Shown one piece after another: positions 34,261 to 34,739 of a DNA stretch of 40,868 nucleotides (its first letter is position 1; each line of letters begins with the position of its first letter). The position numbers and the translations under genes were made by a program. The DNA is from a virus. Taxonomy: Duplodnaviria; Heunggongvirae; Uroviricota; Caudoviricetes. The stretch is from positions 1-40,868 of IMG/VR virus record IMGVR_UViG_2917875804_000004, one strand, 5' to 3'. The notes under the pieces are model-generated. The model had not been told where the DNA came from. It saw nothing but the letters and a program-made list of their open reading frames with translations, and ran no database searches.

Positions 34261-34332
34261 TATTATTTACTCATGTTCTAACTGATTTAATATTTATATC
34301 GAACACTGATAATTATTCTGTTGGTTAGCTAT

Positions 34333-34651
34333 ATGAACAAAACGATTTTATTCTGCACGATTATTGCCTTAACAGGATGTAAATCTTTGGATTACGTAAA
34401 ATCCGGCAAGCCTGTAATGGAAGGTAATTCATTAAAAAAATATTGATGAATTGTCAGGCTGCATATCCAGACAATGGGCTGGTAATGGAACACCTATAAC
34501 ATCCATTCCTATTGAGAATGGGGTAAGCCTTTTAGTTCCACAGGCTATGGGTGGGTATGATGTTGTGCTTGATATCAAAAAAGCAGGAAATGGCAGTAGT
34601 TTTACTCTTTATGAACGCGTACCAGCATTAACGCCAAAAATTTTTTGCTGA
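34333..34651 (+). CDS. Lipoprotein moron between I and J (37-aa lipobox ORF 34333-34446 plus ORF 34451-34651; joined by a 1-nt deletion in A7 run 34434-34440); possibly Cor-like
   Basis: Signal peptide with lipobox LTGC; AT-rich insert with its own terminator in a slot that is empty in lambda. Confidence 0.4.
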
Positions 34652-34697
34652 TAGTGTTAATGCATGTAAATAATAGTTAATCCTGCCGTAACTCATG

Positions 34698-34725
34698 AGC
34701 CGCCTTTTGGGCGGCTTTGTTGTTT
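34698..34725 (+). terminator. Rho-independent terminator (AGCCGCC-TTTTG-GGCGGCT then T-rich) ending the moron
   Basis: 7-bp stem plus TTGTTGTTT directly upstream of the J SD. Confidence 0.55.
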
Positions 34726-34739
34726 ATGGAGTGTGAGGA

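What the first reader, a model, noticed from the sequence alone, without database searches (positions are those of the whole stretch)
34261..34739. AT-rich lipoprotein moron inserted between tail genes I and J
Lambda has no gene between I and J. Here a 480-bp AT-rich insert carries a lipobox ORF (MNKTILFCTIIALTGC...) that extends to about 105 aa if the A7 run is corrected, plus its own terminator directly in front of the J SD. Small outer-membrane lipoproteins in tail-gene morons such as Cor block the receptor to exclude superinfecting phage.
Basis: partly seen in the sequence, partly recalled or inferred. Interest (0 to 1): 0.55.

Follow-up and report, generated by a model that had tools for sequence, protein, structure and literature searches.

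The report
Uncharacterised lipoprotein moron between tail genes
A small AT-rich gene cassette inserted between tail genes I and J of a lambda-like E. coli prophage encodes a 112-residue outer-membrane lipoprotein of unknown function; the family recurs in phage tail-gene clusters, is unrelated to the known exclusion lipoproteins Cor and Llp, and its copy here is broken by two homopolymer indels that are probably sequencing errors.

Summary
A 479-bp spacer at 36% GC separates I and J, which are about 56% GC, and it carries a lipobox ORF.

- The gene is broken twice in this window, at A7 (34434-34440) and at T6 (34641-34646).
- Of 63 related loci, 60 have A6, the other three could not be read there, and all 63 have T5. 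The intact gene encodes 112 aa, not 105.
- Four other homopolymer indels break small terminase, portal and a tail fibre gene, so sequencing error is likely.
- The "own terminator" is homologous to a hairpin already present in the 60-bp I-J spacer of lambda.

The protein belongs to PHROG 914, function unknown, and is a RefSeq "hypothetical protein" in 337 of 5426 complete E. coli genomes. It has an invariant lipobox Cys plus two invariant Cys, and a confident alpha/beta model.

It shows no homology to Cor, T5 Llp or mEp021 Lpp, and it has no Pfam match, which excludes Bor.

Homologues down to 28% identity sit in three tail slots: G/T|H, K|I and I|J. HK97 and HK022 carry annotated morons in these same slots, including the exclusion protein gp15.

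Identical alleles accompany at least four J receptor-binding types, which argues against a receptor-matched plug.

Envelope-level phage exclusion is the best guess but is untested. Interest is modest.

The parts
33619..34260 (+). Tail assembly gene I, left flank of the insert
   Evidence: ORF of 213 aa. Pfam Lambda_tail_I, E 4.8e-24. Homology with lambda and with the insert-free prophage runs up to the stop codon.
34261..34695 (.). AT-rich inserted cassette (moron) that replaces about 25 bp of the ancestral I-J spacer
   Evidence: The full 479-bp spacer (34261-34739) is 36% GC, against 56% in the flanks. This stretch is absent from lambda and from E. coli 19AR1321 prophage L091. It is present at 97.5-99.6% identity in 337 of 5426 complete E. 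coli genomes.
34333..34673 (+). Prolipoprotein gene (PHROG 914 family). 339 nt and 112 aa when intact; 341 nt here, split over three frames.
   Evidence: phrog_914 match at E 5.7e-33 over the full length. Relatives are annotated WP_001332187.1 and WP_153274582.1, 'hypothetical protein'.
34333..34380 (+). Signal peptide with lipobox L-T-G-C16. The residue at +2 is Lys.
   Evidence: The pattern rule is matched. The lipobox Cys is invariant in 41 of 41 family members. The +2 rule, under which absence of Asp implies outer-membrane sorting by Lol, is established knowledge applied by inference.
34434..34440 (+). A7 run, one A more than relatives. First frameshift, leading to a stop at 34444-34446.
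   Evidence: A6 in 60 of 60 readable related loci and A7 only in the window.
34641..34646 (+). T6 run, one T more than relatives.
   Evidence: T5 in 63 of 63 related loci. Removing one A and one T restores the 112-aa protein.
34697..34727 (+). Hairpin GAGCCGCCT-TTT-GGGCGGCTT plus T-rich tail (terminator-like). It is resident to the I-J spacer and was not imported with the insert.
   Evidence: Terminator scan. RNA fold of -22.1 kcal/mol, z -2.7. Homologous hairpin AAACCGCC-TGCG-GGCGGTTT at the same place in lambda and in L091.
34308..34313 (+). Best -10-like hexamer, GATAAT, with poor -35 candidates. A possible weak promoter, not established.
   Evidence: Relaxed scan gives at best 8-9 of 12 matches, with non-optimal spacing. 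The strict scan found none. There is no enrichment of extended -10 motifs upstream of homologues.
34740..38153 (+). Tail tip / host-specificity gene J, right flank
   Evidence: ORF of 1137 aa. Relatives are annotated gpJ. Its C-terminal type is one of at least four found next to the same lipoprotein allele.

Best explanation
SHOWN. The I-J spacer of this lambda-like prophage carries a horizontally acquired single-gene cassette. When intact, it encodes a 112-aa prolipoprotein.

INFERRED, localisation. After Sec export, lipidation at Cys16 and signal peptidase II cleavage, the product should be a 97-residue, 10.3-kDa lipoprotein. [quoted passage not shown] A compact alpha/beta domain would then face the periplasm, probably stapled by a Cys43-Cys111 disulfide.

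SHOWN. The copy in this window is interrupted by two +1 homopolymer expansions. These are most likely sequencing errors. If real, this copy is a pseudogene.

INFERRED, function. The family is a long-standing passenger of the tail-tip gene block of lambda- and HK97-like siphoviruses. It most likely acts at the cell envelope against incoming siphophages, through superinfection exclusion and/or protection of progeny from adsorbing to debris.

Identical alleles travel with different J receptor-binding domains. The target is therefore more likely a step or component common to these tails or to the envelope than the phage's own specific receptor. Crossing of the periplasm by the tail tip or tape measure is one candidate, as proposed for HK97 gp15.

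My confidence is about 0.9 for the gene, the lipoprotein call and the moron status. It is about 0.75 for sequencing error. It is about 0.4 for an exclusion function of any kind.
For: Insert and composition.

Intact gene in relatives, under purifying selection.

Sequencing error:
- Six homopolymer length differences in 22 kb against L006. They break small terminase (19175), portal (21930, 22431), this gene (34434, 34641) and a tail fibre gene (40200). No other kind of lesion was seen.
- The insert holds 3 of the 21 runs of 6 or more bases in the compared region.

Lipoprotein:
- Lipobox rule met.
- C16, C43 and C111 are invariant, and P27, W48 and G63 nearly invariant, in 41 sequences.
- AF2 model with pLDDT 83.7 and pTM 0.76, topology H-E-H-E-E-E-E-H.

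Tail-module residency. Homologues at 28-58% identity sit in these slots:
- K|I in Kluyvera, several IMG/VR contigs, Fraca, LMessi, P0016, P0017 and P0025.
- G/T|H in Enterobacter.
- I|J in E. coli.

All prophage copies in tail modules are AT-richer than their flanks. Each of the four homologues scanned (L017, L077, L004, L086) is followed by a hairpin.

Slot analogy:
- HK97 and HK022 annotate 'moron products' in exactly these three slots.
- HK97 gp15 (T|H slot) is a proven exclusion protein whose specificity depends on the tail region of the incoming phage (PMC3594210).
- Lipoproteins in the structural clusters of mEpimmI phages exclude phages experimentally (PMC11893012).

Decoupling from the receptor-binding domain.
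Against: - No experiment and no homology links this family to any exclusion factor. PADLOC has no hit.
- No promoter of its own is demonstrable, and the E. coli allele has a poor Shine-Dalgarno sequence. Expression from a repressed prophage is therefore unproven.
- Cellular, non-prophage homologues exist: Shimwellia, next to ecotin, and a housekeeping context for P0064. The fold may serve an ordinary envelope function.
- Morons of any function could accumulate in the same permissive slots.
Confidence: 0.4

Rival explanations
1. One reading: a Cor/Llp-type plug. The lipoprotein binds the periplasmic face of the outer-membrane receptor used by this phage's own J protein (for example FhuA) and makes it unusable.
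For: It is a small outer-membrane lipoprotein encoded in a tail gene cluster. Llp, Rtp45, Cor and mEpimmI Lpp021/Lpp010 show that this mechanism is common (PMC9586334, PMC12685063, PMC11893012, PMC3594210).
Against: - No sequence relation to Cor once signal peptides are removed (probability 1.4%). None to Llp or to mEp021 Lpp.
- Neither fold search listed Llp among its best matches.
- The same allele is linked to at least four J C-terminal types that share under 80% identity.
- The gene lies 3.4 kb upstream of the region encoding the J C-terminus. Known exclusion lipoproteins have a mature part of about 6 kDa and sit next to the receptor-binding protein gene (PMC12685063).
- Fraca has both this gene and cor.
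Confidence: 0.12
2. A lysogenic-conversion or host-fitness lipoprotein in the manner of Bor/Iss. It would alter envelope properties such as serum resistance, stress tolerance or virulence for the benefit of the lysogen, with no role in phage-phage conflict.
For: - Chromosomal, non-phage homologues exist.
- The top structural neighbour is Flpp3, a Francisella virulence-associated lipoprotein, followed by the BamC N-terminal domain.
- Carriers include extra-intestinal pathogenic strains: NU14, an APEC strain and a CSF isolate.
- Bor is a precedent (cited in PMC3594210).
Against: - No Pfam hit at all, so it is not in the Bor family.
- No own promoter is evident, whereas conversion genes need expression in the lysogen.
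- Persistent placement inside the H-M-L-K-I-J block across homologues down to 28% identity is not explained by a host-fitness role.
Confidence: 0.2
3. The copy in this window is a genuine pseudogene in a decaying, defective prophage. The frameshifts are real mutations and the locus does nothing here.
For: As written, the window encodes only a 37-aa truncated product. Portal, small terminase and a tail fibre gene are also broken. Occasional frameshifted copies exist elsewhere: L074, L075, P0002 and P0013.
Against: All six differences are 1-2 base length changes in homopolymers, with no substitution-type nonsense mutations, IS elements or deletions in 22 kb of otherwise collinear sequence at 96-98% identity. 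None of 60-63 relatives shares either change. This pattern is typical of homopolymer-prone sequencing.
Confidence: 0.2
4. The A7 run is a programmed slippery site or a phase-variation switch that regulates production of the full-length lipoprotein.
For: The frame change happens exactly at a poly-A run.
Against: A6 and an uninterrupted frame occur in 60 of 60 relatives, with no length polymorphism at all. A second, unrelated frameshift lies at T6. Similar indels are scattered through unrelated genes.
Confidence: 0.02

Closest known systems
HK97 gp15 / HK022 gp20 tail-operon morons (superinfection exclusion; Juhala et al. 2000; Cumby et al. 2012, reviewed in PMC3594210)
   Same: - A single small gene for an envelope-targeted protein, AT-rich relative to its flanks and followed by a hairpin.
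- It sits in the same intergenic slots of the siphovirus tail operon. gp15 is at G/T|H and HK022 gp20 at K|I; this family is at G/T|H, K|I and I|J.
- It is decoupled from the receptor: gp15 exclusion depends on the tail region of the incoming phage, not on its outer-membrane receptor.
   Different: - gp15 and gp20 are 62-74 aa inner-membrane proteins with an N-terminal transmembrane helix and no lipobox.
- There is no sequence similarity: hhalign probability is 0.08% for gp20.
- This protein is a lipoprotein with a folded 97-aa domain, presumably at the outer membrane.
Cor (phi80, HK022, N15, T1): phage exclusion lipoprotein
   Same: A phage-encoded small lipoprotein in the tail region of lambdoid and HK97-like phages. 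It shares a lipobox, a proline about 10 residues after the lipid Cys, and a C-terminal Cys-Lys.
   Different: - Cor is 77 aa, lies downstream of J next to the receptor-binding end, and is tied to FhuA users.
- The mature domains show no homology (probability 1.4%).
- The only NCBIfam match is a sub-threshold one to VirB7.
- Fraca carries both genes.
T5 Llp and Rtp45 (structurally characterised exclusion lipoproteins for FhuA and LptDE)
   Same: Periplasm-facing lipoprotein anchored in the outer membrane and encoded by a siphovirus (PMC9586334, PMC12685063).
   Different: - Their mature proteins are about 6 kDa and are encoded beside the receptor-binding protein gene.
- Llp matches only on the signal peptide (8a60_B, E 0.8).
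mEpimmI phage Lpp021 / Lpp010 (PMC11893012)
   Same: Lipoproteins found by lipobox search inside the structural gene cluster of temperate coliphages. Plasmid expression showed that they exclude phages.
   Different: mEp021 gp81 is 72 aa, lies downstream of J on the opposite strand, and aligns only over the signal peptide. The Lpp types track the receptor used (OmpA or LamB), whereas this family does not track the J type.
Flpp3 (DUF3568) of Francisella; BamC N-terminal domain; DUF302
   Different: Sequence identity is 6-12%, the scores are weak, and no Pfam DUF3568 hit was found. This is a resemblance in fold, not evidence of family membership or function.

Membership tests
Bacterial lipoprotein (signal peptidase II substrate) | Positively charged N-region, an uncharged hydrophobic core, and a lipobox [LVI][ASTVI][GAS]C with the Cys at residues 15-35 | tested here: met
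   K3, LFCTII, then A-L-T-G-C16. The PROSITE-type regular expression matches at residues 6-16. The Cys is invariant in 41 of 41 homologues.
Bacterial lipoprotein (signal peptidase II substrate) | Actual lipidation, globomycin-sensitive processing and membrane localisation | not testable with these tools
   Requires palmitate labelling and cell fractionation. Outer-membrane sorting is inferred only from Lys at +2.
Moron (Juhala et al. 2000; PMC3594210) | Extra DNA that is absent from otherwise collinear relatives | tested here: met
   Lambda and E. coli 19AR1321 prophage L091 have a 60-bp I-J spacer. The window has 479 bp.
Moron (Juhala et al. 2000; PMC3594210) | Base composition different from the surrounding genes | tested here: met
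   36% GC against 56%. The same holds for prophage homologues in other tail-module slots, at 38-44% against 51-55%.
Moron (Juhala et al. 2000; PMC3594210) | Own transcription terminator | tested here: inconclusive
   A hairpin is present at 34697-34717, but it is homologous to the hairpin already in the lambda I-J spacer. All four homologues scanned in other slots do carry a hairpin of different sequence just after the gene.
Moron (Juhala et al. 2000; PMC3594210) | Own promoter that gives expression from the repressed prophage | tested here: inconclusive
   No site passes the strict sigma-70 scan. The best relaxed match is 8-9 of 12. Extended -10 motifs upstream of 11 homologues are no more frequent than in shuffles, 3 observed against a mean of 1.9. 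Expression itself cannot be tested here.
PHROG 914 (phage protein family, unknown function) | Full-length match to the family HMM | tested here: met
   E 5.7e-33, 114.9 bits, residues 1-112 on profile positions 1-118 of 118.
Cor (phage exclusion lipoprotein) | Sequence homology of the mature domain to Cor proteins | tested here: not met
   hhalign of mature-only profiles (41 against 15 sequences) gives probability 1.4%. Full-length hits cover only the signal peptide and lipobox, 29-30 columns. No NCBIfam match passes threshold.
Cor (phage exclusion lipoprotein) | About 77 aa, encoded downstream of J near the side tail fibre genes | tested here: not met
   This protein is 112 aa and is encoded upstream of J. 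HK022 and Fraca cor lie downstream of J.
Cor (phage exclusion lipoprotein) | Inactivates FhuA and excludes FhuA-dependent phages | not testable with these tools
   Needs efficiency-of-plating, adsorption and ferrichrome-uptake assays.
T5 Llp (lytic conversion lipoprotein) | Sequence or fold similarity to Llp | tested here: not met
Bor / Iss serum-resistance lipoprotein | Match to the Pfam Bor family | tested here: not met
   No Pfam family at E up to 10 for the protein. None among 41 family members except incidental hits.
HK97 gp15-type exclusion protein | Small inner-membrane protein with an N-terminal transmembrane helix, homologous to gp15 | tested here: not met
   The gp15 and HK022 gp20 sequences have no lipobox. 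hhalign against gp20 gives probability 0.08%. Only the genomic slot is shared.
Known anti-phage defence systems (PADLOC-DB) | Match to any PADLOC model | tested here: not met
   0 families at E up to 10.

The most novel reading that the evidence does not exclude
PHROG 914 lipoproteins are a new, receptor-independent class of Gram-negative superinfection-exclusion factor. In this reading they are outer-membrane-anchored periplasmic proteins that intercept a conserved part of incoming lambda- or HK97-type tail tips (tape measure, gpI or the N-terminal part of gpJ) as it crosses the periplasm. That would make them a functional counterpart of Gram-positive Ltp and of HK97 gp15. It would also explain why the gene has stayed inside the H-M-L-K-I-J block across homologues down to 28% identity, while being uncoupled from the J receptor-binding domain.
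Probability: 0.2. Interest if true: 0.6.

Novelty: new variant of a known kind. Interest (0 to 1): 0.33.

Why it matters
Small envelope proteins encoded by morons in tail operons are a known source of phage-phage exclusion and lysogenic conversion. Only a few families have been tested: Cor, Llp, Rtp45, gp15, Bor and the mEpimmI Lpp proteins.

This family is present in about 6% of complete E. coli genomes, including O104:H4 and extra-intestinal pathogenic strains, and in Enterobacter and Kluyvera prophages. It has a confident predicted fold, no known function, and an unusually faithful association with tail-tip genes.

If it excludes phages regardless of receptor, it would affect host-range prediction for phage therapy. 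It would also add a mechanism to the short list of envelope-level defences.

If it does not, it remains one more conserved hypothetical moron. The finding also gives a practical warning: this window carries homopolymer indels, so apparent pseudogenes in it should not be over-interpreted.

Tried and rejected
- **Phase variation or programmed frameshift at A7:** rejected. A6 in 60 of 60 relatives and T5 in 63 of 63.
- **Homology to Cor:** the initial hhalign probabilities of 64-94% came from the signal peptide. With mature domains only, the probability is 1.4%.
- **Other candidate relatives:** no homology to Llp, mEp021 Lpp gp81, HK97 gp22, which occupies the same I|J slot, or HK022 gp20.
- **Family libraries:** Pfam, NCBIfam and PADLOC gave nothing usable. 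There is no sequence relative in the PDB.
- **Rfam scan of 34000-35000:** only two sub-threshold chance hits.
- **Conserved partner gene upstream:** rejected. The upstream ORFs in Fraca and L086 are unrelated.
- **Conserved promoter upstream of homologues:** not significant.
- **Phage DNA search:** blastn against the phage collection found no match to the insert. Only two remote protein matches were found, Fraca and LMessi.
- **Searches that could not run or gave little:** The search for related loci could not run on the divergent alignments. The genome-contig scan gave one locus. Single-protein viral scans for P0041 and P0019 found nothing. The afdb50 fold library was unavailable. Look-up of P0006 found no record.
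- **Literature:** a search for the RefSeq accession found no paper.

Full report
**1. Observation**

Gene I (33619-34260; Pfam Lambda_tail_I, E 4.8e-24) and gene J (34740-38153, 1137 aa) are separated by 479 bp. The spacer is 36.3% GC, against 55.8% for I and 56.6% for J.

An ORF starts at ATG 34333 and reads MNKTILFCTIIALTGC. It meets the standard lipobox rule: Lys3, an uncharged hydrophobic core, then L-T-G-C16. It stops at 34446, just after a run of seven A (34434-34440). The rest of the protein continues in the +1 frame from 34451 to 34651. A GC-rich hairpin with a T-rich tail sits at 34697-34717, directly before the J ribosome-binding site.

**2. Two frameshifts, probably sequencing errors**

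Megablast finds the insert in 337 of 5426 complete E. coli genomes at 97.5-99.6% identity. There it is annotated as a 339-nt "hypothetical protein" (WP_001332187.1 or WP_153274582.1) between the tail assembly protein and gpJ.

Alignment shows two extra bases in the window: A7 instead of A6, and T6 instead of T5 at 34641-34646. Removing both restores the 112-aa protein of the relatives exactly.

Among 63 related loci from E. coli genomes and IMG/VR, the A-run is 6 in all 60 readable cases and the T-run is 5 in all 63. There is no length polymorphism, which excludes a phase-variable or programmed slippery site.

The window was compared with a 96-98% identical prophage (L006) over 22 kb. Apart from compensating indels in short divergent stretches, the only length differences are six homopolymer changes:
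- 19175, in small terminase
- 21930 and 22431, in portal, which appears as three ORFs
- 34434 and 34641, in this gene
- 40200, in a tail fibre gene

. The AT-rich insert holds 3 of the 21 runs of 6 or more bases in that region, so two hits there are not surprising. I read this as homopolymer sequencing error (about 0.75). A decaying prophage is the alternative.

**3. The gene is real and conserved**

- 60 of 63 loci keep the intact frame.
- The 13 alleles encode 7 protein variants. Alternative codons are 11 synonymous against 6 non-synonymous, and 9 of 16 variable sites are at third positions.
- A word-indexed search found 15 relatives in Enterobacteriaceae.
- An exhaustive profile search found 116 clusters at 50% identity with E up to 0.001, almost all 105-125 aa lipoproteins.
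- In a 41-sequence alignment the lipobox Cys, Cys43 and Cys111 are invariant, and Pro27, Trp48 and Gly63 are nearly so. This fits an exported, disulfide-stabilised domain.
- AlphaFold2 on a 7-sequence alignment gives pLDDT 83.7 and pTM 0.76, with topology H-E-H-E-E-E-E-H.
- The mature protein would be 97 aa, 10.3 kDa, with pI 7.9. Lys at +2 implies Lol sorting to the outer membrane (established rule, applied by inference).

**4. What it is not**

- Pfam has no hit, so it is not Bor.
- NCBIfam has only a sub-threshold signal-peptide match to VirB7.
- PADLOC has no hit.
- PHROGs gives phrog_914, function unknown, at E 5.7e-33 over the full length.
- No PDB sequence relative exists. T5 Llp (8a60_B) matches residues 1-20 only.
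- In BFVD the only good match is an uncharacterised protein of Pseudomonas phage phiAH14a (TM 0.70/0.83).

Cor needed a closer look. Full-length profile comparisons with Fraca and HK022 Cor gave probabilities of 64-94%, but only over the signal peptide and the first few mature residues. I then built a 15-member Cor profile and trimmed both families at the lipid Cys. The probability fell to 1.4%.

mEp021 Lpp gp81, an experimentally shown exclusion lipoprotein (PMC11893012), also aligns only over the signal peptide. Phage Fraca has a homologue of this gene and, separately, cor.

**5. Genomic habit**

The family keeps to siphovirus tail operons but occupies different intergenic slots:
- **I|J:** lambda-like E. 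coli prophages.
- **K|I:** Kluyvera (L017); IMG/VR contigs L084, L085/L010, L076 and L092; phages Fraca and LMessi; and the contigs carrying P0016 and P0017. These range from 28% to 58% identity.
- **G/T|tape measure:** an HK97-like Enterobacter prophage.
- **Next to the integrase:** one remote member, at a prophage end.
- **Ordinary chromosomal contexts:** two members, Shimwellia beside ecotin, and P0064 among housekeeping genes.

Prophage copies in tail modules are 38-44% GC in 51-55% GC surroundings. The Shimwellia chromosomal copy is not AT-rich. Each of the four homologues scanned (L017, L077, L004, L086) is followed by a hairpin of different sequence. No partner gene is conserved.

The three slots are exactly where the HK97 and HK022 records annotate "moron products":
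- gp15 at G/T|H
- HK022 gp20 at K|I
- gp22 and gp23 at I|J

gp15 is a proven superinfection-exclusion protein that acts at the inner membrane. Its specificity depends on the tail region of the incoming phage, not on its receptor (PMC3594210). By eye, HK022 gp20 resembles gp15. That exclusion family therefore also moves between these slots.

**6. Junctions and the terminator**

Lambda (J02459) and an insert-free E. coli prophage (L091) have a 60-bp I-J spacer. That spacer already contains the hairpin AAACCGCC-TGCG-GGCGGTTT, a T-tract and the J Shine-Dalgarno sequence. The window's hairpin and everything after it are homologous to this.

The insertion proper therefore spans about 34261-34695 and replaces about 25 bp. 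The "own terminator" is a resident feature, although it probably does end any transcript of the insert.

No convincing sigma-70 promoter is present. Upstream regions of 11 homologues are not enriched for extended -10 motifs. The E. coli allele has a weak Shine-Dalgarno sequence, whereas most homologues have good ones. Expression in the lysogen is therefore unproven. By default the gene would be read as part of the late operon.

**7. Mechanism**

Localisation as an outer-membrane, periplasm-facing lipoprotein is well supported by inference. Function is not shown.

Identical protein alleles sit next to at least four J C-terminal types that share under 80% identity over the last 250 residues (clusters of 24, 6, 3 and 2, plus one truncated J). 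The gene also lies at the opposite end of J from the region encoding its C-terminus. Llp, Rtp45 and Cor are about 6 kDa and are encoded beside the receptor-binding protein gene (PMC12685063, PMC9586334).

The faithful association with the H-M-L-K-I-J block, the shared slots with gp15 and gp20, and the precedents for lipoprotein exclusion factors make envelope-level exclusion the most likely role (about 0.4). That role could be exclusion of superinfecting phages or protection of progeny from debris. Within it, a target common to these tails is somewhat more likely than the phage's own receptor.

A Bor-like host-fitness role (about 0.2) is supported by the cellular homologues and the Flpp3 resemblance. 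The remainder is unknown function.

**8. Verdict**

This is a real, conserved, uncharacterised lipoprotein moron. It is a different protein family doing, at best, a job of a known kind. It is already catalogued (PHROG 914, RefSeq hypothetical protein) but never studied. The copy in this window is broken, probably artefactually.

A specialist would not be surprised by a lipoprotein moron in a tail operon. The slot fidelity, and the uncoupling from the J C-terminal type that usually sets receptor specificity, are the interesting parts. They can be tested with simple plating assays.

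Noticed in passing
window 19175, 21930-21937, 22431, 40200: Four further homopolymer length differences relative to a 96-98% identical prophage (A3 vs A4, T8 vs T6, T3 vs T4, A5 vs A4). They split the small terminase, the portal (three ORFs: 21679-22089, 22086-22442, 22439-23281) and a tail fibre gene (38208-40232 / 40177-40590). Overlapping minus-strand ORFs near a T7 run at 641 suggest more of the same in the left half of the window. The window appears to come from a homopolymer-error-prone assembly.
   Followed up: partly
window 34261-34270 and 34666-34675: A perfect 10-nt inverted repeat (TATTATTTAC / GTAAATAATA) brackets the lipoprotein gene. It runs from the first base after the I stop codon to the gene's own stop codon. 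By a rough estimate about 0.6 such pairs are expected by chance in this AT-rich stretch, so it may mean nothing. Its position at the exact left junction of the insert is still notable.
   Followed up: no
L100 (lambda J02459) 1246-1305; L091 10295-10354; window 34697-34739: The 60-bp I-J spacer of lambda itself carries a conserved 9-bp GC hairpin with a T-tract immediately before the J Shine-Dalgarno sequence. It is a terminator-like or RNA-processing element inside the late operon. I do not know of a described function for it.
   Followed up: partly
L090 (HK97) 1204-1392 and L093 (HK022) 5749-5973: HK022 gp20, the moron in the K|I slot, looks like a homologue of the HK97 exclusion protein gp15 in the G/T|H slot. 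Both have an N-terminal transmembrane helix followed by R(A/S)..RAN.QVE.L. If so, the same exclusion family occupies different tail-operon slots in the two phages, in parallel with the lipoprotein family studied here. This was compared by eye only.
   Followed up: no
L086 2420-6939 and L087 3197-6939: In two metagenomic prophages, a block of about 4.5 kb is inserted between tail gene K and the lipoprotein gene, inside the tail operon. It contains two unannotated ORFs and then genes with Arc repressor, Bro-N, KilA-N/ANT and pRha domains (an immunity or antirepressor-type module).
   Followed up: no
L074 3279-3613 and L075 8001-8335: Two IMG/VR contigs carry a variant of the gene at 89% identity, with a frameshift after codon 73 (...QAMGD...). 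This is either another sequencing artefact or an independently inactivated copy.
   Followed up: no
Cor alignment A7 vs family alignment A3: Cor and this family share three traits: a proline about 10 residues after the lipid Cys, one internal Cys, and a Cys at or next to the C-terminus, often followed by Lys. The mature domains show no detectable homology (probability 1.4%). This may be convergence on a tether plus a disulfide-stapled end.
   Followed up: partly
P0030 (1047 aa): A long, highly repetitive Thr/Ser-rich protein scored E 2e-10 against the family profile in five stretches. It looks like a compositional or repeat artefact rather than a relative.
   Followed up: no
L013 (Shimwellia blattae CP001560.1) 6001-6339: A chromosomal, GC-rich (62%) homologue at 38% identity sits between a YidB-family gene and ecotin, with no phage genes nearby. 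It may represent the cellular source of the phage-borne family.
   Followed up: no
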